64,000 nt of DNA from Escherichia phage arall, in the sequence record MN850584.1. One strand, given 5' to 3'. Positions 25,021 to 62,280 of the stretch are shown here, piece by piece. Positions within the stretch are counted from its first letter, which is position 1. The number at the start of each line of letters is the position of its first letter. The notes under the pieces were generated by a model that ran no database searches, was not told the origin of the DNA, and saw only the letters and a program-made list of their open reading frames with translations. A program made the position numbers and the translations under genes.

Positions 25021-25027
25021 CACATAA

Positions 25028-25049
25028 ACCCGCTTCGGCGGGTTTTCTT
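25028..25049 (+). terminator. Rho-independent terminator, identical to 111-133
   Basis: ACCCGC-TTCG-GCGGGT + TTTCTTG. Confidence 0.75.
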
Positions 25050-25792: not shown

Positions 25793-26605
25793 TTACTTAG
25801 TCAAATGATCTTCTATCATTTTTATGAAAGCAGGATTGCTAAAAGCATCTGCTGCCTTTTCTCTGTAAACAAAGACTCCTCTATCTTCGTAAAGAAGAGT
25901 TTCTTCGTAATTAATTCCTGGGTTAACAACAATCATTTTTGTACCCATATTAAGTGCAGGGAATAATTCCCAATTAAAATTGATAACTTGGTTTGAACAT
26001 CCTACTACAACAACCAAATCTTGCATGGTCAAAGTATCAAACAAGTGAGCCATATCTGCATACAAAGGTGCAGCCTCACCAAAAAATACAACATTAGGCT
26101 TCACCCAGTTATAATCATCTATGTTTATACTATTGTAACCAATATCTACCAGTGTTTTGTAATCTCCAGGATGCATACGGTAAACTACTTCAGGAAGATA
26201 CCCGTGCACGTGAATAACAGAATCCCTGTCCACACCTGCTCGCTCTAGTAGATCATCAACGTTTGTTGTCAAGTTTACTACTTGGTTAGGATATTCCTTA
26301 AACCACTTTGCTATTTGAATATGTGCAGCATTAGGTTGTACATCTTTAAGCTCAACACGTCTTTTGTTATAAAATTCGTGTGTTTTGGCATACAAGTCCA
26401 TACCGTTCTCGTCTACACCACCGACCACTGGAAGATCTGGAGATGTTCTCACACGATAACCTGCTTGGAAAGCTCCAATATCGCAGACCTCTTCTAAGTC
26501 ATATTCTTCCCATAAGGCACGACCACTATCTGTGTCTGTTCGGAACGTTCGAATCCCACTGTCTGCACTTAAACCTGCGCCACTAACAAAAATTACTCTT
26601 CGCAT
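25793..26605 (-). CDS. Sir2 (sirtuin)-family protein, Zn-ribbon-less
   Basis: GAGLSADSGIRTFR (sirtuin GAGxSxxSGIPxFR), TTNVDDL (TQNID), HVHG catalytic His, VVFFGE; no Cys4 Zn module; RBS AAGAGGA. Confidence 0.8.
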   Translation of the reverse strand: MRRVIFVSGAGLSADSGIRTFRTDTDSGRALWEEYDLEEVCDIGAFQAGYRVRTSPDLPVVGGVDENGMDLYAKTHEFYNKRRVELKDVQPNAAHIQIAKWFKEYPNQVVNLTTNVDDLLERAGVDRDSVIHVHGYLPEVVYRMHPGDYKTLVDIGYNSINIDDYNWVKPNVVFFGEAAPLYADMAHLFDTLTMQDLVVVVGCSNQVINFNWELFPALNMGTKMIVVNPGINYEETLLYEDRGVFVYREKAADAFSNPAFIKMIEDHLTK

Positions 26606-26616
26606 TCAATATCCTC

Positions 26617-27162
26617 TTAGTAATCATCATCCCAAGAAGATGCGTCGTAACGCTCTTCCTCTTCGAAATCCCAATTAATTTCTACTCCAAAATCTAAAAA
26701 CAATTTAACAATGTTTTCTGTAGAGTAGTATTTATCATAAGCATTAGCTAGTTCCCAATACTTGTCACTCAATTTTTTATATTTAGGATCATTATAGTCA
26801 TAATCTACTTTATAACCATAATCATACATCTCTTGTTTAGCTTTAAGCATAGCTTCTGGTGTAAGAAGATTAGGGAACGGACGATTTCTTTCTTTTAACT
26901 TAGAAGCAATCCAGTTTGCAACATTCGCCACTTCACCATCTCGATTATCACCTAAACAACTTGCATAATCTCCATCTTCGTAAGTGCCTAAATCCCCACA
27001 GACCACATGTACAATACTTGAATACGATCCACACGTTTCACAATCTGAAAAAGTGTCTACTGTTGTAATATCAATAGATAAAACTGGTAAAGCCATAGCT
27101 TCTTTCACACAAGCCTCCTCATATAATAACATATCATCAAAACCCATATATCCTCCACACAA
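26617..27162 (-). CDS. Highly acidic, Tyr/Asp-rich hypothetical protein (181 aa)
   Basis: ORF in operon; composition only. Confidence 0.55.
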   Translation of the reverse strand: MCGGYMGFDDMLLYEEACVKEAMALPVLSIDITTVDTFSDCETCGSYSSIVHVVCGDLGTYEDGDYASCLGDNRDGEVANVANWIASKLKERNRPFPNLLTPEAMLKAKQEMYDYGYKVDYDYNDPKYKKLSDKYWELANAYDKYYSTENIVKLFLDFGVEINWDFEEEERYDASSWDDDY

Positions 27163-27164
27163 AT

Positions 27165-27185
27165 AAAGCCCCTGATTGGGGCTTT
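27165..27185 (-). terminator. Intergenic hairpin AAAGCCCC-TGATT-GGGGCTTT (weak terminator/attenuator)
   Basis: 8-bp GC stem; poor T-run. Confidence 0.4.
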
Positions 27186-27201
27186 GGTTAAGTTTTATGG
27201 A

Positions 27202-27813
27202 TTATACCAGACTTTTAAGGTACTTGTCAAGGGCTTCTTGATCACCTTGACAAACATAGCAACGGAAGTCTTGAGCAGAAGGTTCTTTGTCCTCGTCCCA
27301 ATCCCAATAAACAGTACCTTTATAACGTGAACCTGGGAACTCGAAATATGCCACATGAGTAATATGGTGTGGGCCACCCCAAAATTCTGTAAAAGTAAAT
27401 TGAGGATACGCTGCTTTAACTGTATTCTCAAACCAAGTTTTACGATCTAATGCTTCGTTTATAAAATAAGCATGGCGTTCCATTTCATCCCAATCTTTCC
27501 AAACGCATTTTTCATCCAGAGAAAAAACAAAATCTTCACTGTTAAAATCGTCTGTATCTGATTCCAAAATATCATAATCATGTGCACTAGGTATCCACCA
27601 TCCAGCTTCTAATAGTGCTTTTGCAGGTACAAAACCTTTTTCAGCATATTGATCAAATTCTTTTACTCTACGTACAGTGCAGTATTCATCTTCACCACCA
27701 ATGTCCAGCAGACAAGCACCTTTGCGTCTTGCTGCAAGACCATGTGTATCAAAAACTACAACACTACCTTCACCATCTTCACGATCTACTTGATATGCAA
27801 CTTTTTGAGTCAT
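27202..27813 (-). CDS. Hypothetical protein (203 aa)
   Basis: ORF with ATG; no recognised motifs. Confidence 0.55.
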   Translation of the reverse strand: MTQKVAYQVDREDGEGSVVVFDTHGLAARRKGACLLDIGGEDEYCTVRRVKEFDQYAEKGFVPAKALLEAGWWIPSAHDYDILESDTDDFNSEDFVFSLDEKCVWKDWDEMERHAYFINEALDRKTWFENTVKAAYPQFTFTEFWGGPHHITHVAYFEFPGSRYKGTVYWDWDEDKEPSAQDFRCYVCQGDQEALDKYLKSLV

Positions 27814-27814
27814 A

Positions 27815-27952
27815 TTACCCCCAATGTATATGGGAAATTAACCAAAAGATAAATTCCCAAAAACACCAACCAAGAAAAGTTAATGGAATTATAAAAGCTA
27901 TCAGAGCAGTCTTCCAGCCTTTCCACAATGTTTCCACTATTCCTCCATACAT
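27815..27952 (-). CDS. Possible small membrane protein (45 aa) filling Dcm-27813 gap
   Basis: Hydrophobic ORF exactly spanning intergenic gap; weak RBS. Confidence 0.3.
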   Translation of the reverse strand: MYGGIVETLWKGWKTALIAFIIPLTFLGWCFWEFIFWLISHIHWG

Positions 27953-28926
27953 TTAAGAATATGTGCAATGACAGGTATAGTCCAACCGTTGCCTAACATC
28001 TTATATGCTTGTGTGTTACTACTCACTTTAAAGTAATCATCTGGAACACCTTGTAAGCGGCAACACTCTTTAACCGTTAACTTTCTGTAATGTACGCCTT
28101 CACTCAATTTTTCAAAGGCATCTAGATATCTTCCAGGTGGAATGTAAGCTAATAGTACGTCTTTCGGCACAGTCGTGAGGCAACGAGTTTTTTCACTGTC
28201 CTGAACTTCCAAACAATGTACCAAACGATCAGTTTTAGATGTACTACGTTTGCCATTCTCATTAATTCTACGCCCATATATTGCTGCCGGATAAAAAACC
28301 AGTTGTCTGCGACTCTTTTCAAAATACTGTTCTATATTACCACCTTTGGCATAATTTGCATCTATGCAATAAGCCTTATCTCTGTCTACAATACTATCAT
28401 CTTCAATAATATCTTGCAACACTTCATTGGTAATCTCCCAGGGTTTTATTTCCCAGTTGCACCAGTATAAACGTTGTCTATTCTGTGCCGTGAAATCTGC
28501 GGAGTTAATGAATACGGGATCAACACCTAAGTAACTTGTGATCACGTTTTCCCACTCCACTTTCATCTTAACGTTTTCAAGCATGAACTTAACATTAGGA
28601 TTAAACTTTTTAATATGTTCAAGAATTTCAACATATTCGAAGAATAGCTTAGATCGCGGATCTTGAAAGTTCAAACCCTTACCAGAAGAAGAGAAGCCTT
28701 GACACGGACTACCACCTAACAAAAGATCAATTTCTCCCCACGGGATATCCCATTCTCTCCATTTTGTAACATCACCTAACTGAATAATATCTGGAAAATT
28801 TGCTTGGCTTTCAGCTATGGCAAATTTGTCTAATTCTGAAGCATAATATGTATCTACTTCAATACCTGCACTTTTTAGCGCAAGCATTCCTCCTGACATA
28901 CCATCAAAAAGACTTAAAACTTTCAT
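27937..28926 (-). CDS. DNA (cytosine-5)-methyltransferase
   Basis: Motif I LFDGMSGG, motif IV GSPCQGFS, motif VI ENV, C-terminal NGWTIPV-like block. Confidence 0.85.
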   Translation of the reverse strand: MKVLSLFDGMSGGMLALKSAGIEVDTYYASELDKFAIAESQANFPDIIQLGDVTKWREWDIPWGEIDLLLGGSPCQGFSSSGKGLNFQDPRSKLFFEYVEILEHIKKFNPNVKFMLENVKMKVEWENVITSYLGVDPVFINSADFTAQNRQRLYWCNWEIKPWEITNEVLQDIIEDDSIVDRDKAYCIDANYAKGGNIEQYFEKSRRQLVFYPAAIYGRRINENGKRSTSKTDRLVHCLEVQDSEKTRCLTTVPKDVLLAYIPPGRYLDAFEKLSEGVHYRKLTVKECCRLQGVPDDYFKVSSNTQAYKMLGNGWTIPVIAHILKCMEE

Positions 28927-28928
28927 TA

Positions 28929-29339
28929 TTACTTCTTCTCCTTAACACTAGCTGGTAATTCTGCCTTGAGGCAGAAGTTTAAACGGTAAGCCTCATTCTC
29001 ATTTAAAAGTACAGATTCACACGATAACCAGAACAAGAGATCCTCAATACCAGGGCTGTTAAGCCAACAGTGCAGAAGAGAATGTTGTTCTATATCAATG
29101 TAATTTAGTAACAAGGCTTGTAAGGCGTAACTAGTTCCTGTCGTTTTTGCTTTTTCAAGGATGATATTGTGTTTACTAACAACTTTCTTCTTAAGACCAA
29201 ACCATTTATTAACAACAACAGTCTCTTCTTGTAGTTGTTTTCTTATTTTCTCACATTCTTTAACTACAATCTGCATCTTATCCACTGCTGATTGAAGTTG
29301 TTCTTTTGTTGGGTTTACAAAATAGTCACTATAGTACAT
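28929..29339 (-). CDS. Hypothetical protein (136 aa)
   Basis: ORF in operon. Confidence 0.55.
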   Translation of the reverse strand: MYYSDYFVNPTKEQLQSAVDKMQIVVKECEKIRKQLQEETVVVNKWFGLKKKVVSKHNIILEKAKTTGTSYALQALLLNYIDIEQHSLLHCWLNSPGIEDLLFWLSCESVLLNENEAYRLNFCLKAELPASVKEKK

Positions 29340-29396
29340 GCTAATCTTCTCCTCTTCTGTTTTTCTGTAGTTTATTCGAAAAAACTGGTGTTGTCA

Positions 29397-29424
29397 ACAA
29401 AAAACCCGCCGAAGCGGGTTTATA
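29397..29424 (-). terminator. Terminator hairpin AACCCGC-CGAA-GCGGGTT with T-run on minus strand, followed by TTGACA
   Basis: Variant of 111-133 family; internal terminator/promoter junction in minus block. Confidence 0.6.
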
Positions 29425-29682
29425 TTATTCTACAGGAACTTCTTCACCAAGAGAAACTTCTAAACGGAATGCTTTACTTTCAATACACTCACTACCTTTT
29501 AGAAAATCAAATTGCACTATAGACTGACTTAATAGGATAGATAGAATCACATCACAATCTTCACTAGGAGCTAGATGTTTGTATTCTTCCTTCAAGGTAA
29601 CATCATAAAAACATAAATCCCCTACTCCTAGTTCATCCCATCCTTCCCACGCATCTACAAAGTTAAACTCTAAACCTTTCAT
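29425..29682 (-). CDS. Hypothetical protein (85 aa)
   Basis: ORF. Confidence 0.5.
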   Translation of the reverse strand: MKGLEFNFVDAWEGWDELGVGDLCFYDVTLKEEYKHLAPSEDCDVILSILLSQSIVQFDFLKGSECIESKAFRLEVSLGEEVPVE

Positions 29683-30203
29683 ACAACCTCCTCGTAGTTG
29701 TTATTGTGTTTTACTGTCTCAACATACAATAAAGATTCCATCTGTAATACATTACCAGAAATAATAAACCCGTAAGCCATTTCAGATGTGTCTATATCAT
29801 ATGCCCCGTCTTCCGGTTTAGCAAAGTGTAAAACTATTTCATCTGGGTTTTCTTCATCCCATAGTTTAGAAATTTTCCGAACCAGAATGTTAGCTAAAAT
29901 AGTTGACATTCGGGATAAAGCTGTATCCTCGTATCTTTTAAAACCTAACCAATAGAGGTTAAGAATTTCTACTTCTTCTTGTGTTAAGTTTTTGTCTAAA
30001 GTAATCAGATCTGTAGGATACATCGTTTTTGTTGAACCTACTGTTACAAAACCTGGAGTGTTATGAAAAACAATCTTAACTTTATCACGTATAAAGTTTA
30101 AACCTTGTGCCTCAACTATATATTGTATTGTAGGTACAATATCGTTTGTTACATCAATAAAACTATCTTTAATGACGCTTATATTATTTCTGGACAAGAC
30201 CAT
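29679..30203 (-). CDS. Hypothetical protein (174 aa)
   Basis: ORF, overlapping stop/start. Confidence 0.55.
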   Translation of the reverse strand: MVLSRNNISVIKDSFIDVTNDIVPTIQYIVEAQGLNFIRDKVKIVFHNTPGFVTVGSTKTMYPTDLITLDKNLTQEEVEILNLYWLGFKRYEDTALSRMSTILANILVRKISKLWDEENPDEIVLHFAKPEDGAYDIDTSEMAYGFIISGNVLQMESLLYVETVKHNNNYEEVV

Positions 30204-30762
30204 TCTCCTCTAAAATAGGCTTAATAAATTCGAAAATTTGTTTTTTACTTTTATCTCGAATATTAAAACAAGGAACATTAAACTTTTTAGCCAACATCCA
30301 AGCTGTTCTTGTACCACCTAAAGGATCTCCATTTTTATCTGTATTTGCACAAGCTAAAAGAAAACAAGATGGTTTTGGATTCTCAAGATCTCTTCCAAGA
30401 ACTTGGTGGATATTTCTTTGATGTAATTTTTTAGCACCTTGAGATAATCTGTCCCAAGCTGGATGCAATTCTTTTGCATATTGCAAGGTTAGAGCATAGT
30501 TTACACTATCTGGTCTGTCAAGAACAATAACCTCTCCCTCTATTTCATTACCTTTAAACGAGAGCCAAGGGATGTATATTTCTTTCTTTGTATTGTTCCC
30601 ACTATCATATACCCCGCATTCAAATGCGGAATCTGCACCTTCTGCTTTACCAGATCGCAAAATGAACCATGTAGATAACCATTTTGCAACAGATACCATA
30701 GTATCCCATTCTTCGTCTGTAATATCTCTGCTACCAACACCTGTGTAGAATAAATCGCTCAT
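30184..30762 (-). CDS. DprA/Smf-like Rossmann-fold (SLOG-superfamily) protein
   Basis: Start at MSDLFY (RBS AAGGAG); TGVGSR ... SGKAEGAD pattern typical of DprA/LOG/SLOG nucleotide-binding folds; motif recall only. Confidence 0.4.
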   Translation of the reverse strand: MSDLFYTGVGSRDITDEEWDTMVSVAKWLSTWFILRSGKAEGADSAFECGVYDSGNNTKKEIYIPWLSFKGNEIEGEVIVLDRPDSVNYALTLQYAKELHPAWDRLSQGAKKLHQRNIHQVLGRDLENPKPSCFLLACANTDKNGDPLGGTRTAWMLAKKFNVPCFNIRDKSKKQIFEFIKPILEENGLVQK

Positions 30763-30772
30763 GGTTTTCTCC

Positions 30773-31093
30773 TTAACAAGTAATATTGGGAGTAACAATT
30801 GGATTAACAATTGGAGTAATAGGGTACGTAAACCAAGGGCTTCCAATTTCCCAAGGATAATAAGGTCTACGAGGATCGTATGGAGGAGTTACTTCAGGCT
30901 TTTTCCAAATCTCCGCTAATTGTTTCTTCCATTTATCCCTTGCTGTCTCATTATCTTCATCCAACTGTTCATCATTATCTTTTATTTCTGGTTTTGGAAA
31001 TAAAAGCTCTTTGACTAATTCAACATCTTCCGTCTCAATAGTAGTTTCTTTCGTAAGTTCTCCTACTGTTTCTTTAATTGTGATTTTATACAT
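30773..31093 (-). CDS. Pro/Glu-rich hypothetical protein (106 aa)
   Basis: ORF. Confidence 0.5.
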   Translation of the reverse strand: MYKITIKETVGELTKETTIETEDVELVKELLFPKPEIKDNDEQLDEDNETARDKWKKQLAEIWKKPEVTPPYDPRRPYYPWEIGSPWFTYPITPIVNPIVTPNITC

Positions 31094-31839
31094 TAGTCCT
31101 CCTCTAAAGTAGAATAAAATTGTAACGTATTTGAATCATCAAAATATGCAAAGGTTAAATTACCATTGAAGCAAGATCCTGTGTCCATATATACCCTATT
31201 ACTGCTAATCACAGGTTTAGGAACATAAGAATGCCCGTGAAATACATAATCTACTCCTGAAACCCTAGGAAGAAGAATCCCTTCAAGTGCGCAATCTATC
31301 ATATCACGATCCCACATTAAAGATTCTGTGAATTGAGAAACTTGCTCTTTATTCATATTCAAACAAAATGGCAAAACTTCTGTCACTGGTAAATGTTCCA
31401 AAACTGAAGGATACCCACCGTGAATAAAGCCTAGTTTCATATTACGATAATTGACAACAAGTACAACAGGTAAATCTTCTAGCATCAAAGCAAGAGCAGT
31501 TGCACCCTCTTCTCCACACTCGTCTAGAACTGTATGGCCTCCGTTCTGAAACCAACATTCGTAATATCGTCTATCACCTTCTAACAACCCTTTAATCATC
31601 ATATCTTCATGATTTCCACGAATACCATAACGATTTAGCTTTCTGGTGAATTCAACAACACAACGAAAATTCTGCTTGCCGCGATCTGTAAGATCTCCTA
31701 AAGATACAACAACATCTTGATCTCGGATACCTAAAGTATTAACACCTTTCTGGTACAAATCAAAGCAACCATGTAAATCACCAATAATAAACAGGTCTTG
31801 ATCATCTTTTACACTAATTTCTTGATATACTAACATCAA
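31093..31839 (-). CDS. Calcineurin-like metallophosphatase (Ser/Thr protein phosphatase family)
   Basis: GDLHG, GDLTDRG, GNHE motifs. Confidence 0.8.
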   Translation of the reverse strand: MMLVYQEISVKDDQDLFIIGDLHGCFDLYQKGVNTLGIRDQDVVVSLGDLTDRGKQNFRCVVEFTRKLNRYGIRGNHEDMMIKGLLEGDRRYYECWFQNGGHTVLDECGEEGATALALMLEDLPVVLVVNYRNMKLGFIHGGYPSVLEHLPVTEVLPFCLNMNKEQVSQFTESLMWDRDMIDCALEGILLPRVSGVDYVFHGHSYVPKPVISSNRVYMDTGSCFNGNLTFAYFDDSNTLQFYSTLEED

Positions 31840-32162
31840 CTCTCCTCAAAATCCATAAGTATAAAGATATTAACTTTACCTTCTATATTATGTTCTACAA
31901 CAAGATCTGCAAATTCTTTGTAGGCTTTTTCTTCTATTTGTTCAATGTGAGACGCTACATCTTTGTATATAGCGTCACCATCTACTTTAACAAGGAGGAA
32001 TAGAGATCTTACTTCAATCTCTTTATTTTTACGGGGTAGAAAATCGACGGCTTCTTGTATACGCCAGCCGAGATACCCTGGAGTCCTTTGAATATCCTCC
32101 AAATGACTTTCTAAGATTTCCCTTCCTTTGTCTATTAAAGCCTGTTCTGTCGTTATTTTCAT
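31836..32162 (-). CDS. Hypothetical protein (108 aa)
   Basis: ORF. Confidence 0.5.
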   Translation of the reverse strand: MKITTEQALIDKGREILESHLEDIQRTPGYLGWRIQEAVDFLPRKNKEIEVRSLFLLVKVDGDAIYKDVASHIEQIEEKAYKEFADLVVEHNIEGKVNIFILMDFEES

Positions 32163-32172
32163 CCCCTTCTCC

Positions 32173-32745
32173 TTAATGTGTTAATGAAACTGCGTAGCTA
32201 AACACAGGTTCAGATATTACATCGGCTACAGTAATAAAAACGTCTTCGTCTTGAGTTGTTTCTACACGACATACAGTTACACCATTCACCACGAATTCAA
32301 CGCAATGTGGAATATCTTCACAAACGAAGGTAGTGTAAGTAACACCCAAAGCATCATACAAAGATTTAACAGTGTTTGCAAGTGCCGCAGTTTCTTCTTT
32401 TTCTGAGACAATGAATGCTGTAACAACAAGATTGTTTGCATAGTTTAGACTGTCCTCTATAGCCAATGATTTACAAGGTAGTAATGCAAAATATTTACCT
32501 GGTTTAATCAGACCTGCTTCCCATTGATTCAAAATTGCCTGGGATGGTTTAGTAATATAAAACAGATTTTCACTTGGGTTATCAATATTACTTCTGGCGA
32601 TACAACGTGAAGGATTATTATTATCAAATACATGATCAAAATCTACACAAACAGGTAAACTGAAAGGTGTGAATTTTTTACCTAATAATCCTATGGCTGA
32701 TAATATGTTTGCTGTGCTTATCTTCCCGTTAAAAGCTAAACGCAT
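32173..32745 (-). CDS. Hypothetical protein (190 aa)
   Basis: ORF. Confidence 0.55.
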   Translation of the reverse strand: MRLAFNGKISTANILSAIGLLGKKFTPFSLPVCVDFDHVFDNNNPSRCIARSNIDNPSENLFYITKPSQAILNQWEAGLIKPGKYFALLPCKSLAIEDSLNYANNLVVTAFIVSEKEETAALANTVKSLYDALGVTYTTFVCEDIPHCVEFVVNGVTVCRVETTQDEDVFITVADVISEPVFSYAVSLTH

Positions 32746-32756
32746 ATTTAACTCCT

Positions 32757-32960
32757 TTAACTAGCAACCGTAACTTCCGAACTTTCTTCTTTCGTACTGT
32801 CTACGATATGCCTGGTGGCAATATACGAGACTTGCCAGTTACCATCTGGTGTAGTCTCAATAAGTACCCTATCTACTTCGAGAAAATGCAAAAATTCAAC
32901 CATCGCTCGCTTCGATAGGAATTGTTTTTTAACAGTCTCCTCAAAAGATTGAACTGCCAT
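32757..32960 (-). CDS. Hypothetical protein (67 aa)
   Basis: ORF. Confidence 0.45.
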   Translation of the reverse strand: MAVQSFEETVKKQFLSKRAMVEFLHFLEVDRVLIETTPDGNWQVSYIATRHIVDSTKEESSEVTVAS

Positions 32961-32969
32961 GTTTCCTCC

Positions 32970-33632
32970 TTATTTAATATTCAATTTTGCACAAAGACGT
33001 TGTACCGCTTTGGCATCGAACAAACTCCCACGAATAGTTCTCTTTCCTGATTCATTCAGATGTTTTGCAATCGTCATATATGGCGTTTTACAAGCTCTGT
33101 ATGCAACTAAAGAATCTTTTAAAGAAAGCGCAAACTCTTTTGAGCGTTTTGCTTCTTCCGTTTTCGTATAATCTGTTCTTTTGTATTTAGGGTTTGCTGC
33201 ACCAAGAAGCGTTCCCTTCGCTTTTGCTACTTTAAGGCTCTTCTTAACACGATCAGATATTGCACGAGCCTCTTCTTCTGCCAGAACTGCTAAAATATTT
33301 ATTATCATATTTTCAGCGGAGGGCATAGTTGCTATTCGTACATTAATCATCTCTAACAAGGTTGCAACAGAAGCTGTGTTACGTCCAAGACGGTCAACCT
33401 TAGCAACAACAAGTGTAGCACCTGTTTCTTTGCAAAGATTAACAGCTTTTACAAGCTCTCTACGTTGCTTCCAATCGCCTTTACCCGAATAAAACTCTGC
33501 AAAGCTACCTACAATAGTATAATTTTCTTGTGAATCCAGGAAGCGTTGGATATCTGCTTCCTGTGATTCTATACCATACTGGTTGCCTTGTTGTTTCTTC
33601 TTAGAAAGTCGATGATACAGTACAAACTTCAT
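32970..33632 (-). CDS. Serine recombinase (resolvase/invertase family) with C-terminal HTH
   Basis: YHRLSKKKQ (catalytic Ser region), VAKVDRLGRN hallmark, ~220 aa. Confidence 0.8.
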   Translation of the reverse strand: MKFVLYHRLSKKKQQGNQYGIESQEADIQRFLDSQENYTIVGSFAEFYSGKGDWKQRRELVKAVNLCKETGATLVVAKVDRLGRNTASVATLLEMINVRIATMPSAENMIINILAVLAEEEARAISDRVKKSLKVAKAKGTLLGAANPKYKRTDYTKTEEAKRSKEFALSLKDSLVAYRACKTPYMTIAKHLNESGKRTIRGSLFDAKAVQRLCAKLNIK

Positions 33633-33689
33633 AATACCCTCCTGTTCTGTTACAGGAAGTATGCACTACCTTAACGTTAAAGTCAACAG

Positions 33690-33905
33690 TTAAGTAGTGG
33701 TAATATCATCTTCTTGAATATCAGGATCAACTTCTGCAAAGATAGCTTCTACAGGAATTTCTTCACCTGCTATTCTAGAAAGAAGCACTGAACCAATAGC
33801 TTTTGCGTGTTCTTCGGATTCCGCATAAACATTAGTCCCTGTGTCTTTTTTCTTAGTTTCGTTAAAATATACCAGATAGTAATTGTATGCCATTATTCTT
33901 CCCAA
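33690..33905 (-). CDS. Hypothetical protein (71 aa)
   Basis: ORF. Confidence 0.5.
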   Translation of the reverse strand: MGRIMAYNYYLVYFNETKKKDTGTNVYAESEEHAKAIGSVLLSRIAGEEIPVEAIFAEVDPDIQEDDITTT

Positions 33906-34144
33906 TCGTTGTTACGAGCATTTTCAAGAACCTTGACAACTTCTGCATACTCTACAGCTAAACCAGCACACACTTCAGCTTGTTTTGCAATTGCTTGTTT
34001 AAAGAACATAGCGATTGCAACACTCTGTGTTGTGTGAATGTTATCTGCTTTAGTTGATACGTGAAGATCAAAATCTTCTTCATCAAAGGTGAGTTCCATA
34101 GTAACAATAAATTTCTCGGTCATAAAAATGCTCCTCTTAAACAA
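33893..34144 (-). CDS. Hypothetical protein (83 aa)
   Basis: ORF. Confidence 0.5.
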   Translation of the reverse strand: MFKRSIFMTEKFIVTMELTFDEEDFDLHVSTKADNIHTTQSVAIAMFFKQAIAKQAEVCAGLAVEYAEVVKVLENARNNDWEE

Positions 34145-34646
34145 AATAGAAAGGTTGAGTTAAACCCAGCCTGTTTTTTGGGTCGTAGACGTACCAAGCA
34201 TATGCTGTCTTATCAGTACCACCTGCAACAAAAGATGGTCGTTCAGAAAGAACAATCAAATTTGTTGGTGGATTCTGTTTATGGAATTCCCTTCGTTTAA
34301 TAGACTCTAGGAAACCAAGACGCAACAAGTATATGCAAACGTCTGCTTCTTTTAAGCTCTTTTGCAAGAACTCAAGTGCAAGTTTGAATGGGGGATTTGT
34401 GATTATAATATCCGGCTTAGTATACCATTCATGGTTAAAATAATCTTTCCCTTCTTCTAACTCACAATATTCTGATCCTTCTGGAAAATGTTGATAAATT
34501 GCAGCAGCAGCGCCTTTACACGGTTCTGCAAAAATAAAACCTTCTTCTTTAAGGTTATTAAAATCTATTACACTAAATAATGCATTTATACATTTTTGTG
34601 GAGTAGGATAGTAATCAGTTGGTGGACGATCATACTTATTTGCCAC
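34137..34646 (-). CDS. Putative N6-adenine (amino-) DNA methyltransferase, small
   Basis: IIITNPPF (motif IV NPPF) preceded by AEPCKGAAA (AdoMet-binding-like). Confidence 0.6.
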   Translation of the reverse strand: MANKYDRPPTDYYPTPQKCINALFSVIDFNNLKEEGFIFAEPCKGAAAAIYQHFPEGSEYCELEEGKDYFNHEWYTKPDIIITNPPFKLALEFLQKSLKEADVCIYLLRLGFLESIKRREFHKQNPPTNLIVLSERPSFVAGGTDKTAYAWYVYDPKNRLGLTQPFYFV

Positions 34647-35064
34647 TACTTAAAATCTCCTCTTTTGTGATTTCAGGGTCTTCTTCAAAAACCATAATAT
34701 CTCTTAAGAACGTTAATTCTTCCATAGATACTGGTATTGTATCTTCTTCTGTTTTTCGTTTACATAAATCGTCAAGAAAGTTTTTAAAGTTTTCTGACAA
34801 ATCGTAAAATTTCAACAGTTGATAATCACAGGAGGAGATCCTATCTAGTTCTAACATTCTTTCTAAGATATTTTCTGTGTTGCCATACAGCACACGAACT
34901 TCTCCGAAAGGGTTGACTGAATATTGTGAAGTTCTGAACCATCCCTTTTTAGATACAGTGTAACGCTGTTCTGCTAAACTTTCAATAAAATTTTTAGCTC
35001 TTTTACAGTTTTGTTCTAAAGAGTAGTAGGCTTTTTCTACAAAGGTTACAGGTACTGGTAACAT
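34636..35064 (-). CDS. Hypothetical protein (142 aa)
   Basis: ORF. Confidence 0.5.
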   Translation of the reverse strand: MLPVPVTFVEKAYYSLEQNCKRAKNFIESLAEQRYTVSKKGWFRTSQYSVNPFGEVRVLYGNTENILERMLELDRISSCDYQLLKFYDLSENFKNFLDDLCKRKTEEDTIPVSMEELTFLRDIMVFEEDPEITKEEILSSGK

Positions 35065-35105
35065 ATCTCCTCCTAATAAACCCCCTTGAGGGGGTTTGTG
35101 TTAGA

Positions 35106-35759
35106 TTAATTATCAGAGGATACTTTATCAAGTTTTTCAGAGACTGTCAATACTTTTTCTTGTGATTCTTTCATTTCTGCTAAAATACTTTCAGCTTCAT
35201 CACTATCAGGATCACCAGTCAACAGCATACTAATTAGTTGCTCCTTGCTGAAGTTCAGAATATCTTCCGCTGTTAGTTCCAGTTGTTCTTCGATCTCTTC
35301 AATAAAAGTTTCACCACCGGAAAAAGCATCTCGTAGTTTTGCAACTTCCATCGCTTCTTCTGGAGTTGCCCCTGCATCTAAAGCTGCTAAAGCAAAATCT
35401 GCCCCACTACCAACAGCATAATAATCTTCAGTTAAAGGATATGCTCGCGTTGGATTATTACCCTCGTGCATATAAATTTTACCGTCTGGGTGAACAACCA
35501 ATGCCACAAACTCTTCATCTTCTTTATCAGGATCTGACTGGATCACCAAACCTGGGATTGTCTCTTGTGCTGCTTGGCATTGTAAGTTTTGTTCGAACCA
35601 AGAAAAGAAAGTCAGGATAGAAGACAGACGTCCTGCACCACCAACAAGGTAATCCCCAATTTTACGCACTTTCTTGAAATTTAAAGTGTCTACACGACTA
35701 CCTACTGTTACTTTACCATCAGATAGAATTTTGTTATGTGTTGCAATAATTGTTGTCAT
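35106..35759 (-). CDS. HslV-like N-terminal-nucleophile (proteasome beta-type) peptidase
   Basis: MTTII (Thr right after Met), SDGKVTVG, KKVRKI, GGAGRLSSILTFFSWFE, AVGSGADFALAA match recalled HslV blocks; acidic C-terminal extension. Confidence 0.7.
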   Translation of the reverse strand: MTTIIATHNKILSDGKVTVGSRVDTLNFKKVRKIGDYLVGGAGRLSSILTFFSWFEQNLQCQAAQETIPGLVIQSDPDKEDEEFVALVVHPDGKIYMHEGNNPTRAYPLTEDYYAVGSGADFALAALDAGATPEEAMEVAKLRDAFSGGETFIEEIEEQLELTAEDILNFSKEQLISMLLTGDPDSDEAESILAEMKESQEKVLTVSEKLDKVSSDN

Positions 35760-37738: not shown

Positions 37739-38005
37739 TTACTCCGCAATCTGAGCCATGAATTCACGTAGTTCAGAAAAACCTCCTACGTGGGTTAGCT
37801 GTTCACCATCTTCCACAAAAATCTGAGGAAATGTGCGTGGTAGAACACCTGTTTTCTCTAAAACCAGATTCTGAATCTGATCTAAAGAATAGTCTTCATC
37901 TAAGGTAAGATATTTAAAATCCTGTTCACGCTGTTCTAGTAGAATCTTAGCGTTAGTGCAGAAAGGACAATTTGGTTTACCGTAGATAATAAAATTCATT
38001 TTCAC
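37739..38005 (-). CDS. Glutaredoxin-like protein (CPFC active site)
   Basis: IIYGKPNCPFCTNAK, ~88 aa thioredoxin fold size. Confidence 0.8.
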   Translation of the reverse strand: MKMNFIIYGKPNCPFCTNAKILLEQREQDFKYLTLDEDYSLDQIQNLVLEKTGVLPRTFPQIFVEDGEQLTHVGGFSELREFMAQIAE

Positions 38006-38832
38006 TCCTTGTTTAAAAGTATAGTTAAAGTTCTTACAATACCGCTATCAACACTTCGCGGATTTAAAGTAGGATCTGTTTTTAAATAAGATGTTGCTGG
38101 TCTGACTGCTTTGGAATTATAGGTTGAAGCAGATACAGGATTAACTGTAACAGATAAATCTATAACAAGAAATATCTTTCGTGCAAAATCATACCAAGAA
38201 ATATAATCTGCACCTGCATAGTGTACAACTTTACTATTTACACCATCTTTTACAAGTTTAAAAATTGTTTCTGCAAGATCAGGTGCATAAGTAGGACATG
38301 ACAAATGATCACATACTACATTAAATTCTTTTTGACCACCGTTGTAGCGTTCCAACATAGTTTTCAAAAAGTTATGTCCAAATTCACTATAAACAGAAGC
38401 TGTTCTGATAATAAGTGCTGTAGGACAAACTGTTTGTACTAAAGTTTCACCTAATTGTTTACTGTAACCGTAGGTGTTCAAGGGGTTTGTTTTACTATCT
38501 TCTGTGCCAGCAACATGCCCATCAAAAACATAGTCTGTTGAAATATGTACAAACTGTATCAGTAAATCATTACATGCTTTGGCAATGTTTGTTGCACCGT
38601 ATGCATTAACATTTATACAGGTGTTAACATCTTCTTCAGCTTTATCTACTGCCGTGTAAGCCGCACAATTCACAACAACATCAGGCACGTGCTGTACAAG
38701 ACTATTCATAACATCTTTAAAGTTGGTAATGTCTATATCACTTGCTTCAATCAAAATAACATCTTCGGGCGCAACTTTTGCCAAAGACTGTCCTAATTGA
38801 CCTTTTGAACCAAAGATTAAAAATTTTGTCAA
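38002..38832 (-). CDS. rmlD: dTDP-4-dehydrorhamnose reductase
   Basis: N-terminal GxxGQLG Rossmann, HISTDYVFDG, YGYSK. Confidence 0.85.
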   Translation of the reverse strand: MTKFLIFGSKGQLGQSLAKVAPEDVILIEASDIDITNFKDVMNSLVQHVPDVVVNCAAYTAVDKAEEDVNTCINVNAYGATNIAKACNDLLIQFVHISTDYVFDGHVAGTEDSKTNPLNTYGYSKQLGETLVQTVCPTALIIRTASVYSEFGHNFLKTMLERYNGGQKEFNVVCDHLSCPTYAPDLAETIFKLVKDGVNSKVVHYAGADYISWYDFARKIFLVIDLSVTVNPVSASTYNSKAVRPATSYLKTDPTLNPRSVDSGIVRTLTILLNKE

Positions 38833-39383
38833 AATATGATCTCCTTTAGTGTTTTGGCTTGCTGATCTTTTTGTGACAAGATAGGTTTAAAATTAATATC
38901 ATTAAAGATTAAATCAAAACCCCAATCAATATTGATATCTGGATCATTCCACGCAAGACTACACTCTGAAGTCGGATCGTAATATTCTGTACATTTATAT
39001 TCAAAATCAGCAATGTCACTAATCACAACAAAGCCATGAGCGAAACCAGGAGGAATCCAAAATTGTGTTTTATTCTTTTCAGATAAGAGAACACCTACCC
39101 ATTCTCCAAATGTTGGACTACCAACCCTAATATCTACAGCAACATCATAAACTTCACCACGAACACAACGTACTAACTTCCCTTGTGGGTTTTTCTTTTG
39201 AAAATGAAGCCCACGTAGAACTCCTCGAATAGAACGTGAATGGTTATCTTGGACAAAGTTTTGTTTACCTATGTATTGATCATATAAAGCCTGATTAAAA
39301 CTTTCTAAGAAAAAACCACGTTCATCTCCGTAAACGTCAGGTTGAATGATCAACAAATCTTCGATTTTTGTTGCTTGAATCAT
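38829..39383 (-). CDS. rmlC: dTDP-4-dehydrorhamnose 3,5-epimerase
   Basis: GDERGFFLESF and cupin-like blocks, 184 aa. Confidence 0.85.
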   Translation of the reverse strand: MIQATKIEDLLIIQPDVYGDERGFFLESFNQALYDQYIGKQNFVQDNHSRSIRGVLRGLHFQKKNPQGKLVRCVRGEVYDVAVDIRVGSPTFGEWVGVLLSEKNKTQFWIPPGFAHGFVVISDIADFEYKCTEYYDPTSECSLAWNDPDINIDWGFDLIFNDINFKPILSQKDQQAKTLKEIIF

Positions 39384-39395
39384 TTAATTTCCCCT

Positions 39396-40265
39396 TTATT
39401 TTAATTTAAGTAAATACTTACCGTAGTCTGTTTTACTTAAAACCTCTCCAGAACTTTTTACAGAGTCTAAAGTAATCCATTCATTTTTAAAAGCAATCTC
39501 TTCCAGGCATGCAACCTTCATACCTTGTTGCTTTTCTATTGCATGAACAAATTGAGATGCTTCCATAAGACTTTCATGTGTTCCTGTATCCAGCCAAGTG
39601 AAACCTCTTCCTAGTTTACAGACACGTAAAGCCTTTTCTTTCCAGTACATCTCATTTATATCTGTAATCTCTAACTCCCCTCTAGCAGAAGGTTTAACGC
39701 TTTTAGCTTTCTGTACAACAGAATTATCGTAAAAGTACAAGCCTGTGATTGCATAGTTGCTTTTTGGTGCTTTTGGTTTTTCTTCAATACTCACCACTGT
39801 ACCTTCAGAATCAAACTCAACAACACCAAATCTTTCAGGATCATTTACGTGATACCCAAAAATATTAGCTCCACCATTCTTTTCAATATGTTCTTTAGCA
39901 GAATCTAAAATGCTACCAAAACTCTGACCAAAGAATAAATTATCACCTAGCACAAGTGCTACAGAATCTTCACCAATAAAGTTCTCACCAATAATAAACG
40001 CTTCTGCTAAACCTCTTGGGCTATCCTGTATTGCATACTGTAAGGAAATACCAAAAGAAGAACCATCACCTAGAAGATTTACAAAATTAATTTGATCTTC
40101 TGGTGTTGTAATTATTAGTATTTCCCTAATTCCAGAAAGCATTAGGACAGAGAGTGGATAATAAATCATAGGCTTATCATAAATTGGTAATAGTTGTTTA
40201 CTAACCCCTTTAGTAACTGGGTAAAGTCTTGTTCCACTACCACCTGCTAAGATAATACCTTTCAT
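39396..40265 (-). CDS. rmlA: Glucose-1-phosphate thymidylyltransferase
   Basis: [52 protein letters not shown] near-identical to recalled RmlA N-terminus. Confidence 0.92.
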
Positions 40266-40273
40266 ACTCCTCC

Positions 40274-41263
40274 TTAAACTTTATTTTCCCACCACTCTTT
40301 GTTATCTACATACCAATCAATGGTTGAATAAAGTTTTTCTTCAAATGTGCCTTTAGCTTTCCACCCTAATTCCTTTTCAATCTTATAAGGATTCACTTCG
40401 TATCTTAAATCATGTCCAGGTCTATCTGTAACCATTTCAATGAGGCTACAAGCATCTGTTTCAGATGGATACACCGCATCCATATAATCACAAATCATAT
40501 AGATTACATCAATATTAGTTCTAGGGTTTCTGCTCCCAATATTATATGTTTCTCCAGATTTGCCTTTAGTTACTACTAGGTGTAATGCTTCTGCGTGATC
40601 GTCAACGTATAACCAATCTCTTACTTGAAGACCATTGCCATAAACAGGGATTGGTTTATGCATCAAGATATTTGTTATCGTTTTAGGTATTAGTTTTTCT
40701 GGATGATGATATGCTCCAAAATTATTTGAACAATTTGTTATAACTGTCGGAATACCATAAGTACGATGCCATGCTCTTACCAAATGATCGCTTGCAGCTT
40801 TAGATGCAGCATATGGACTACTTGGTTTATAAGGATTCTGTTCTGTAAACGGATAATCCCCTTCTTCCATATCACCATACACTTCATCTGTTGAAATATG
40901 ATGGAACATTTTAAGATTTGATTTATCTCCCATTAAACGAACAGCTTCTAGAAGATTAAATGTTCCAACAATATTTGAATTTATAAAAACACTCGGTGAT
41001 GCTATTGAATTATCTACGTGACTCTCTGCTGCAAGATGCATTATATAATCTGGATTAACATCTGCCACAATCTTAGCAGTTAACTGCGCATTTGTCAAGT
41101 CAACACGACAAAACTTTACATTAGGTGTTTCTGATAAATTTCTAGGGTCTGAAGCGTAACCCCATTTATCTATAACGTAAATATCATTCTTAGTATTTTT
41201 AGCCAGGAAACGAACTACTGCACTTCCAATAAAGCCTAAACCACCTGTTACTAAGTATTTCAT
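40274..41263 (-). CDS. rmlB: dTDP-glucose 4,6-dehydratase
   Basis: [60 protein letters not shown]. Confidence 0.92.
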
Positions 41264-61276: not shown

Positions 61277-61315
61277 AGAAAACATAAAGTCCGAACTCAA
61301 CTAAGGAGATAAACA

Positions 61316-62209
61316 ATGAAAGTTAGTATTCTACATGGTGTTGACTGTTATGTTACTGATGTAGACGTTAAAGTCTTTACATTCTCTGGTGGAGAACAAC
61401 ATGTTCAACTAGATACGAATCTATCAGGTTTCAATCATGCTACAGACAGAATCTTACTCTCTTTAGAAGTAAGATCTGCTAAAGACTTGATGACTTTGGT
61501 TATGACTAAGAATGCATTGGACAATATGCTATATCATAAACCATATTGTGTTGATTTGCTCATGTTGTATGTGCCATATGCACGACAAGACAGAGTGTGT
61601 GAACCTGGGGAAGCATTCGGAGTTAAAGCATTTGCTTCTATAATTAATTCATTAAATTTCTCACGTGTTATCGTTGCTGATCCACATAGTGATGTTACTC
61701 CAGCGGTGTTTGACAGACTCTGTGTAATACCTCAAGAAGAGATTGCTTACGAAACTTTAAAGTGGAAGTTACGTATGGAGAATTTTGCTCTTGTTAGTCC
61801 TGATGGTGGTGCTCTTAAGAAAATATTTAAATTATCTAAGAAAATGTCTTTAGATGTGTTCTGTGCAGAGAAGGTTAGAGATACTGCAACAGGTGCTATT
61901 GTTCGTACAGACATTTCTGTACAGGATTTCAATAAGCGTAACCTGATGATCGTAGATGATATCTGTGACGGCGGTAGAACTTTTATTGAATTGGCTAAAG
62001 TGCTACGTGCTCGTAACGCAGGTAAGATTGAGTTATATGTTACACACGGTATCTTTTCTAAAGGTCTTAAAGAGTTAAGTGAGCACTTTGACTGCATTCA
62101 TTCTCTTAATGTGTGGGAAGATAACATCCAAGAAGATTCCGGTGTTCTTGTTAAGAATCAGTCAGATTTGCAACAACAAATTGTATCTCCATACGTGTGG
62201 AATTTTTAA
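61316..62209 (+). CDS. Ribose-phosphate pyrophosphokinase (Prs)-family protein; candidate ADP-ribose pyrophosphokinase of NARP1-type pathway
   Basis: VPYARQDRV, ADPHS, VSPDGGA, MIVDDICDGGRTFIEL...YVTHGIFSKG parallel recalled Prs; adjacent to NAMPT-like gene. Confidence 0.8.
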   Translation: MKVSILHGVDCYVTDVDVKVFTFSGGEQHVQLDTNLSGFNHATDRILLSLEVRSAKDLMTLVMTKNALDNMLYHKPYCVDLLMLYVPYARQDRVCEPGEAFGVKAFASIINSLNFSRVIVADPHSDVTPAVFDRLCVIPQEEIAYETLKWKLRMENFALVSPDGGALKKIFKLSKKMSLDVFCAEKVRDTATGAIVRTDISVQDFNKRNLMIVDDICDGGRTFIELAKVLRARNAGKIELYVTHGIFSKGLKELSEHFDCIHSLNVWEDNIQEDSGVLVKNQSDLQQQIVSPYVWNF

Positions 62210-62219
62210 ATAATAAGTG

Positions 62220-62254
62220 TTGACAATAGGGAGTATGCTTAGTAAGATACTCCC
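62220..62254 (+). promoter_or_regulatory. Sigma70-like promoter TTGACA-17-TAAGAT overlapped by palindrome GGGAGTAT-N10-ATACTCCC
   Basis: 8-bp inverted repeat spans spacer and -10. Confidence 0.55.
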
Positions 62255-62280
62255 ACACTAACAAACAAGGAGACATAACT

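What the first reader, a model, noticed from the sequence alone, without database searches (positions are those of the whole stretch)
27937..34646. Two orphan DNA methyltransferases (C5-cytosine and N6-adenine) without cognate nucleases
The Dcm-like gene (27937..28926) and the small NPPF methyltransferase (34137..34646) have no adjacent restriction endonuclease. They are likely anti-restriction genes that self-methylate the phage DNA.
Basis: partly seen in the sequence, partly recalled or inferred. Interest (0 to 1): 0.45.

Follow-up and report, generated by a model that had tools for sequence, protein, structure and literature searches.

The report
Two solitary phage DNA methyltransferase genes
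The window comes from a phi92-like E. coli phage that carries two stand-alone methyltransferase genes; both are already annotated in near-identical published phages, they have no partner nuclease, and published plating data show they do not give broad protection against restriction enzymes.

Summary
The window is a Justusliebigvirus (phi92-like coliphage), 99.6% identical to phage inny.

- **329-aa protein:** a complete C5-cytosine DNA methyltransferase. It matches PF00145 at 1e-43 and has every catalytic motif. It is not an E. coli Dcm orthologue; its nearest solved relatives are DNMT3A/B, M.HaeIII and M.HhaI.
- **169-aa NPPF protein:** a minimal amino-methyltransferase core with no target-recognition domain. 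It has no Pfam, NCBIfam or PDB sequence hit. Its predicted fold matches M.TaqI, MmeI and HsdM, but also METTL5. "N6-adenine DNA" is therefore likely but unproven.
- **Orphan status:** supported. No neighbour is a nuclease, and no neighbour stays with either gene in other phage contexts.
- **Anti-restriction role:** plausible but, if real, narrow. Bas61, a near-identical phage with both genes, is fully blocked by EcoRI, EcoRV and EcoP1.

The genome also lacks 22 of the 64 six-base palindromes, so site avoidance looks like the main passive defence. Target motifs could not be inferred. Both genes and this interpretation are already in public annotations and papers, so the finding is ordinary.

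The parts
27937..28926 (-). 329-aa C5-cytosine DNA methyltransferase (solitary)
   Evidence: PF00145 E=1.1e-43; TIGR00675 141 bits; phrog_116. Residues of motifs I, II, III, IV (P74-C75-Q76), VI (E117-N118-V119), VIII (Q148, R150, R152), IX and X (G312; N313 and G314 >=90% conserved) are invariant or nearly invariant in a 23-sequence alignment and are all present here. Best solved relatives are DNMT3A/B, M.HaeIII and M.HhaI.
34137..34646 (-). 169-aa minimal gamma-class amino-methyltransferase (probable N6-adenine DNA MTase, no TRD)
28929..29339 (-). 136-aa ORF of unknown function, immediately upstream of and co-transcribed with the C5-MTase
   Evidence: phrog_16551, unknown function. Stop codon lies 2 nt before the MTase ATG. 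Only 24% identical to its Phapecoctavirus counterpart, which precedes a different MTase-like gene. Absent upstream of MTase homologues P0122 and P0130, so not an obligatory partner.
29369..29421 (-). Terminator hairpin (29421-29402) followed by a sigma-70-like promoter (TTGACA-17-TAAACT, 29397-29369) ahead of the 136-aa/C5-MTase unit
   Evidence: Consensus scan (17 terminator-like sites against 6.8 in shuffles) and direct reading of the sequence. Pattern match only.
27202..27813 (-). 203-aa downstream neighbour; conserved backbone gene, not a nuclease
34636..35064 (-). 142-aa ORF of unknown function, overlapping the start of the small MTase by 11 nt
   Evidence: phrog_15078, unknown function. 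Homologue present only in Phapecoctavirus (46% identity). The upstream genes of distant MTase homologues are unrelated to it.
35081..35150 (-). Promoter-like site (35150-35122, TTGACA-17-TAAAGT with TG) and terminator hairpin (35093-35081) ahead of the 142-aa/small-MTase unit
   Evidence: Consensus scan and sequence reading. Pattern match only.

Best explanation
The window carries two unlinked, solitary SAM-dependent methyltransferases in the early/middle, minus-strand replication and nucleotide-metabolism block of a phi92-like lytic coliphage. The 329-aa enzyme is an intact C5-cytosine DNA methyltransferase. The 169-aa enzyme is a catalytic-core-only gamma-class amino-methyltransferase, most likely N6-adenine on DNA. 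The most likely mechanism is that each is expressed from host-type promoters during infection and methylates newly replicated phage DNA at its own short motif. Progeny genomes would then enter the next host already protected against restriction systems that recognise that motif. This protection is narrow, not general. It does not cover EcoRI, EcoRV or EcoP1I sites. The phage's broader passive defence is near-complete elimination of GC-containing six-base palindromes. Shown here: gene integrity, fold and motifs, solitary status, conservation. Inferred: DNA as substrate of the small enzyme, methylation of phage DNA in vivo, and the protective role. Unknown: both target motifs.
For: C5-MTase identity and intact catalytic motifs. 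Small MTase fold and motifs; PHROG annotation. Solitary status: no tested neighbour has a nuclease-family hit; the 203-aa neighbour has a non-nuclease fold; neighbours differ in every other context examined. Purifying selection: the small MTase sits at the same syntenic place (PhoH - protease - MTase) in Justusliebigvirus, Phapecoctavirus and Vequintavirus at 98, 87 and 48% identity, with the motif residues invariant across a 48-homologue alignment. Homologues lie in phage replication modules next to primase, RNR and exonuclease genes, which fits a DNA substrate. Both genes have promoter-like sites, terminators and SD sequences. Strong selection from type II restriction on this genome: 14 of 24 GC=4 hexamer palindromes are absent, against 8 of 936 matched non-palindromes. 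The same interpretation is published for this genus (PMC12210895).
Confidence: 0.55

Rival explanations
1. The 169-aa protein is not a DNA methyltransferase. It would instead methylate RNA (rRNA or tRNA m6A, like METTL5/PH1948 or Erm/KsgA) or a protein glutamine (like HemK/Mtq2, which also use NPPY/F). On this reading only one DNA methyltransferase is present.
Against: Sub-threshold Pfam matches are dominated by DNA N6-adenine families: EcoRI_methylase 43 of 48, N6_Mtase 14, Dam 13, Eco57I 11; the non-specific MTS small domain matches 21. Homologues sit in DNA replication modules. PHROG and GenBank annotators call it a DNA MTase, though that is by inference only.
Confidence: 0.17
2. The methyltransferases serve the phage's own biology, not anti-restriction. 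Possible roles are epigenetic timing of gene expression, marking DNA for replication or packaging (as P1 Dam does for pac), or evading host mismatch repair.
For: The small MTase is a syntenic core gene across three genera with different host-defence exposure, as expected for a housekeeping role. The phages remain highly RM-sensitive despite carrying it.
Against: No regulatory motif or methylation-dependent site was identified. The C5-MTase slot is swapped between sister genera, which is typical of arms-race accessory genes rather than housekeeping ones.
Confidence: 0.15
3. The methylation marks phage DNA as self for a phage-encoded nuclease located elsewhere in the genome, which degrades unmethylated host DNA. 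On this reading the MTases are not truly orphan.
For: The genome encodes several exonucleases by the annotation of Bas61 and inny, and the BME3 paper predicts an HNH endonuclease for that related phage. Type II REases are too divergent for family searches to exclude them reliably.
Against: No adjacent candidate exists. The 203-aa neighbour has no nuclease fold. Neighbours are not conserved with either MTase across contexts. No restriction-like gene is annotated in any of the related records viewed.
Confidence: 0.05

Closest known systems
Orphan (solitary) phage DNA methyltransferases, as reviewed by Murphy et al. 2013 (cited in PMC12210895)
   Same: Stand-alone MTase genes in a lytic phage with no cognate endonuclease, presumed to pre-methylate progeny DNA. 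The genes in the window are 98-100% identical to genes already annotated 'Dcm-like C5 cytosine methyltransferase' and 'putative N6 adenine methyltransferase' in Bas61 and about 50 other Justusliebigvirus records.
   Different: No target motif or protective phenotype is known for either. The available phenotype data show sensitivity to EcoRI, EcoRV and EcoP1, not resistance.
Type II C5-cytosine MTases M.HaeIII and M.HhaI, and the DNMT3A/B catalytic domain (PF00145)
   Same: Same ten-motif architecture, with the catalytic PCQ cysteine, ENV and QxRxR motifs. PDB matches have E about 1e-23 to 1e-22.
   Different: Similarity is confined to the catalytic halves. The roughly 120-aa variable region between motifs VIII and IX is specific to a phage and marine clade, at 50-65% identity to Vibrio phage ICP1, jumbo coliphages and marine contigs. 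Specificity therefore cannot be transferred.
E. coli Dcm (CCWGG; NCBIfam NF007772)
   Same: C5-cytosine chemistry. CCWGG sites are abundant in the phage genome (199 in 148 kb).
   Different: Scores 29.9 bits against a cutoff of 710, with only the C-terminal motifs IX-X aligned. CCWGG is equally tolerated in Phapecoctavirus and Vequintavirus, which lack this gene.
Gamma-class N6-adenine DNA MTases (M.TaqI, M.EcoRI, Eco57I/MmeI methylase domains, type I HsdM)
   Different: About 170 aa in total, with no target-recognition domain or specificity subunit. No above-threshold family match. The family has more than 13,000 clusters at 50% identity, nearly all 160-220 aa.
METTL5 / PH1948-type small rRNA m6A methyltransferases
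   Different: 15-18% identity only. Found in the genomic context of phage DNA replication modules. No Trm112-like partner gene is conserved nearby.

Membership tests
C5-cytosine DNA methyltransferase (PF00145 / TIGR00675) | Whole-protein profile score above the curated cutoff | tested here: met
   PF00145 150.3 bits against 22; TIGR00675 141.1 against 100.65.
C5-cytosine DNA methyltransferase (PF00145 / TIGR00675) | Catalytic motifs: I (FxGxG), IV (PCQ cysteine), VI (ENV), VIII (QxRxR), IX and X (GNG) | tested here: met
   F7, G9, P74-C75-Q76, E117-N118-V119, Q148/R150/R152, R281/T284/E287/Q292 and G312 are invariant (N313 and G314 >=90% conserved) among 23 homologues, and all are present in the window protein.
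C5-cytosine DNA methyltransferase (PF00145 / TIGR00675) | Produces m5C at a defined DNA motif | not testable with these tools
   No methylome or biochemical data were found. Comparative site-avoidance analysis gave no genus-specific protected motif.
E. coli Dcm subfamily (NF007772, CCWGG) | Subfamily model score above cutoff | tested here: not met
   29.9 bits against a cutoff of 710; only residues 280-328 align.
Gamma-class N6-adenine DNA methyltransferase | Class I Rossmann MTase fold with motif order X, I, IV and a (D/N)PP(Y/F) motif | tested here: met
Gamma-class N6-adenine DNA methyltransferase | Target-recognition domain or separate specificity subunit | tested here: not met
   The protein is 169 aa, almost all of it catalytic core. 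Family members are 160-220 aa. No conserved neighbouring gene across contexts.
Gamma-class N6-adenine DNA methyltransferase | Above-threshold match to a curated DNA N6-MTase family (N6_Mtase, Eco57I, EcoRI_methylase, Dam, MethyltransfD12) | tested here: not met
   No Pfam or NCBIfam hit at default thresholds. Only sub-threshold hits, for example EcoRI_methylase at 13.6 bits against 26.4. A profile search of PDB gives a best E of 0.014.
Gamma-class N6-adenine DNA methyltransferase | DNA (not RNA or protein) as substrate, with m6A as product | not testable with these tools
   The fold is equally close to rRNA m6A enzymes. The context in replication modules is suggestive only.
Orphan (solitary) methyltransferase | No cognate restriction endonuclease adjacent or consistently co-occurring | tested here: met
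   The neighbours tested have no nuclease-family hits. The 203-aa neighbour has a non-nuclease fold. Neighbours differ in FV3, Kappa, ICP1 and five metagenomic contexts. Caveat: the folds of the 136-aa and 142-aa neighbours were not modelled, and the 45-aa ORF was not tested at all.
Anti-restriction by self-methylation | Phage carrying the genes plates efficiently on RM-positive hosts | tested here: not met
   Published data for Bas61 (experiment 1): pfu 2.7e7 on vector, none on EcoRI, EcoRV or EcoP1, 3e6 on EcoKI, 8e6 on EcoCFT_II. Only six RM systems were tested, so protection against others is not excluded.

The most novel reading that the evidence does not exclude
The 169-aa protein represents a very large family with no Pfam model and no characterised member that I found. 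The family has more than 13,000 clusters at 50% identity, and its members are catalytic-core-only amino-methyltransferases that phages keep as a syntenic core gene. It may not be an anti-restriction enzyme. It could act without a recognition domain on an unusual substrate: single-stranded or replicating DNA at a very short motif, phage or host RNA, or a protein. If so, it would define a new functional class of phage methyltransferase.
Probability: 0.15. Interest if true: 0.55.

Novelty: already known. Interest (0 to 1): 0.2.

Why it matters
As written, the finding adds little. Both genes and the anti-restriction idea are already in GenBank annotations and papers on this genus. Three points would be useful to a specialist:

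1. The label "Dcm-like" should not be read as CCWGG specificity.
2. The small "N6-adenine MTase" is an uncharacterised family with no recognition domain and no Pfam model, yet it is very abundant in phage metagenomes. A single methylome experiment would assign function to thousands of proteins.
3. In this phage lineage methylation is at most a minor layer on top of extreme palindrome avoidance. Sensitivity to EcoRI, EcoRV and EcoP1 remains, which matters when these broad-host-range phages are considered for therapy.

Tried and rejected
1. **Target motif of the C5-MTase from site tolerance.** I compared observed and expected counts of 4-6-bp palindromes in a full Justusliebigvirus genome (has the gene), a Phapecoctavirus genome (has a different 227-aa protein in the slot) and a Vequintavirus genome.
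   - CCWGG, GATC and GCGC are tolerated in all three, so CCWGG abundance cannot be credited to this enzyme.
   - GTAC is less avoided in Justusliebigvirus (436 against 162 and 234). However, GGTACC, AGTACT and CGTACG are all absent there, so no coherent prediction emerged.
2. **A conserved partner or specificity gene for the small MTase.** The 142-aa and 83-aa neighbours have homologues only within the subfamily Stephanstirmvirinae. The upstream genes of distant homologues are unrelated.
3. **The 136-aa ORF as an obligatory partner of the C5-MTase.** It is absent next to the 84% and 60% identical homologues.
5. **Literature search for a methylome of phi92, rV5, ICP1 or BASEL phages.** Nothing was found. 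The phi92 genome paper is not in the library.
6. **Fusion proteins in the small-MTase family as a clue to substrate.** Pfam found nothing informative.
7. **Invertible segment for the nearby serine recombinase.** No convincing inverted repeats.
Full report
**Origin of the window.** Region 27000-35500 is 99.6% identical over its full length to Escherichia phage inny. It is 98-99% identical to about 50 other Justusliebigvirus (phi92-like) genomes, including phi92 itself and BASEL phage EmilieFrey/Bas61. In Bas61 the two genes are already annotated as "Dcm-like C5 cytosine methyltransferase" (bas61_0190) and "putative N6 adenine methyltransferase" (bas61_0203). The window corresponds to the early/middle region of the genome. 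A long minus-strand block runs from about 61 kb down to about 25.4 kb. It encodes nucleotide metabolism, ligases, exonucleases, PhoH, an HslV-like peptidase, a phosphatase, a DprA-like protein, a serine recombinase and a sirtuin.

**Check of the observation.** Both ORFs exist at exactly the stated coordinates, and both have Shine-Dalgarno sequences. A motif scan of every ORF of at least 70 aa in the window found no further (D/N/S)PP(Y/F/W/H) or PCQ+ENV protein. The two genes are 5.2 kb apart with 12 genes between them, so they are independent.

**The 329-aa protein.**
- It matches PF00145 from end to end (E=1.1e-43) and the TIGR00675 superfamily model above its cutoff.
- In an alignment with 22 homologues, the residues that define motifs I, II, III, IV (PCQ, Cys75), VI (ENV), VIII (QxRxR), IX and X are invariant or nearly invariant, and all are present in the window protein. 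The enzyme looks catalytically competent.
- It is not an orthologue of E. coli Dcm: the Dcm subfamily model gives 29.9 bits against a cutoff of 710.
- The best solved relatives are the DNMT3A/B catalytic domains, M.HaeIII and M.HhaI (E about 1e-23), with similarity limited to the catalytic motifs.
- Among sequenced phages the gene is at least 98% identical only within Justusliebigvirus. The next relatives, at 50-52%, are in Vibrio phages (including ICP1) and jumbo coliphages. Metagenomic relatives reach 64%.
- At the syntenic position the sister genus Phapecoctavirus has a different 227-aa Dcm-like protein. That position is flanked by a 69%-identical homologue of the 203-aa gene and a 24%-identical homologue of the 136-aa gene. 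The slot therefore behaves as an exchangeable accessory cassette.
- GC content (0.375) equals that of the genome.

**The 169-aa protein.**
- It has no Pfam, NCBIfam or PDB sequence match. Its only annotated match is phrog_799, "DNA methyltransferase".
- A profile search of 1.84 billion cluster representatives found 13,560 relatives at E<=1e-3. Nearly all of the best 150 are 160-220 aa, so this is a very large family of small stand-alone proteins.
- Invariant residues include T15 (YYPTP), E41-P42-C43 (motif I) and N84-P85-P86 (motif IV; F87 is >=90% conserved), plus R118, R136-P137, F139, D145 and D155; Y149 and W151 are >=90% conserved.
- AlphaFold2 gives a confident Rossmann-fold model (pLDDT 91).
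- Sub-threshold Pfam matches among 48 family members favour DNA N6-adenine families: EcoRI_methylase 43 of 48, N6_Mtase 14, Dam 13, Eco57I 11.
- There is no target-recognition domain.
- The gene occupies the same syntenic position (PhoH - protease - MTase) in Justusliebigvirus, Phapecoctavirus and Vequintavirus, at 98, 87 and 48% identity. It is a conserved core gene of this phage supergroup.
- Distant homologues sit in phage replication and nucleotide-metabolism modules.
- "N6-adenine DNA methyltransferase" is therefore the most likely assignment, but it is not demonstrated.

**Orphan status.**
- None of the flanking ORFs tested hits a nuclease family. The 45-aa ORF at 27815-27952 was not tested.
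- No neighbour is conserved with either methyltransferase in other contexts.
- Both genes appear to belong to short transcription units. Each unit is preceded by a terminator hairpin and a sigma-70-like promoter. These are pattern matches only.

**Function.**
- The anti-restriction reading is the textbook one, and it is already stated for the Justusliebigvirus BME3 (PMC12210895). It is not tested there.
- The BASEL study found Vequintavirinae and phi92-like phages "exceptionally susceptible" to RM systems (PMC8594841).
- Its raw data for Bas61 (experiment 1) show 2.7e7 pfu on the vector control. They show no plaques on EcoRI, EcoRV or EcoP1, 3e6 on EcoKI, 2.7e7 on EcoCFT_I and 8e6 on EcoCFT_II. 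The phage stock had been grown with both methyltransferases present, so neither enzyme methylates adenines or cytosines broadly. Any protection must be confined to other motifs.
- Phage inny was isolated on wild-type MG1655. From established knowledge, that strain carries McrA, McrBC and Mrr. I infer that the m5C pattern, if made, is one these type IV enzymes tolerate. This is inference only.

**Attempt to infer targets.**
- In a complete Justusliebigvirus genome, 22 of the 64 six-base palindromes are absent. Examples are AAGCTT (0 against about 50 expected from base composition) and AGTACT (0 against about 50). GGWCC occurs once against about 115 expected, and CCSGG 4 times against about 69.
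- Among hexamers with four G/C, 14 of 24 palindromes are absent, against 8 of 936 non-palindromes. The window itself shows the same pattern.
- EcoRI and EcoRV sites are retained (34 and 55), which matches the measured sensitivity.
- CCWGG (199), GATC (663) and GCGC (142) are not avoided. The same holds in Phapecoctavirus and Vequintavirus, which lack the 329-aa enzyme. These tolerances therefore cannot be attributed to it; host Dam and Dcm are an equally good explanation. No target motif could be assigned.

**Verdict.**
- Everything in the finding is already present in public annotation and literature, so it is ordinary.
- The residual interest lies in two things. One is the uncharacterised, recognition-domain-less small methyltransferase family. 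The other is the extreme palindrome avoidance of the genome.

Noticed in passing
whole window 1-64000 (and full genome OZ035799.1 = L010-L012): Extreme avoidance of six-base palindromes. In the 148-kb genome 22 of 64 are absent (AAGCTT 0 against about 50 expected, AGTACT 0 against about 50, nearly all GC=4 palindromes 0). GGWCC occurs once against about 115 expected and CCSGG 4 times against about 69. Only 8 of 936 composition-matched non-palindromic hexamers are absent. Three GC=4 palindromes escape avoidance: TGCGCA, CACGTG and GTGCAC. I found no paper describing this for the genus.
   Followed up: partly
window 27202-29339 compared with L007:3115-4839 (Phapecoctavirus Schickermooser): The C5-MTase slot is an exchangeable cassette. 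Phapecoctavirus has an unrelated 227-aa 'Dcm-domain' protein (25% identity over 128 aa, PPC instead of PCQ, no Pfam hit). It lies between a 69%-identical homologue of the 203-aa gene and a 24%-identical homologue of the 136-aa gene.
   Followed up: partly
genome-wide comparison, L010-L018: Sister genera differ sharply in which sites they avoid. AAGCTT is 0 in Justusliebigvirus but 110 in Phapecoctavirus. GGWCC is 1 against 64, GGTACC 0 against 17, and GTAC 436 against 162. This suggests different restriction pressures or different protective modifications.
   Followed up: no
window 32970-33632 (-): A 220-aa serine recombinase/DNA invertase (PF00239, E=8e-22) sits in a lytic phage. It is absent from the syntenic interval of Phapecoctavirus. 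No flanking inverted repeats suggesting an invertible segment were found within 6 kb.
   Followed up: partly
window 25793-26605 (-) and about 61315-64000 (+): A Sir2-family protein (PF02146) is present. By mapping onto the Bas61 annotation, so are a PRPP synthetase and a nicotinamide phosphoribosyltransferase at the right end of the window. This is an NAD+-related gene set that may bear on NAD-depleting host defences.
   Followed up: no
window about 38000-41260 (-): By mapping onto the Bas61 annotation, a four-gene dTDP-rhamnose pathway (RmlA-D-like) lies just upstream of the glutaredoxin gene. The BASEL authors mention it as a possible dTDP glycosylation machinery that evidently does not protect against RM.
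   Followed up: no
window 25024-25046 and 29401-29423; 27201-27230 (-): Two identical 23-nt terminator hairpins (AAACCCGCTTCGGCGGGTTT) lie 4.35 kb apart in opposite orientation. A perfect sigma-70 consensus promoter (TTGACA-18-TATAAT with TG) lies inside the 3' end of the 203-aa gene.
   Followed up: no
GenBank records MG065645, MG065650, MG065682 (L013-L018): Records labelled 'UNVERIFIED: Campylobacter phage A145/B15/A112b' are near-identical to E. coli Justusliebigvirus, Phapecoctavirus and Vequintavirus genomes. The host label is probably wrong.
   Followed up: no
alignment A1; L005:2396-3013 (Vibrio phage Kappa kp12): A subset of the small-MTase family carries a roughly 25-aa four-cysteine zinc-ribbon insertion just before the last conserved strand. 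This includes the homologue in the temperate P2-like vibriophage Kappa/K139. The insertion could be a minimal DNA-binding element.
   Followed up: no
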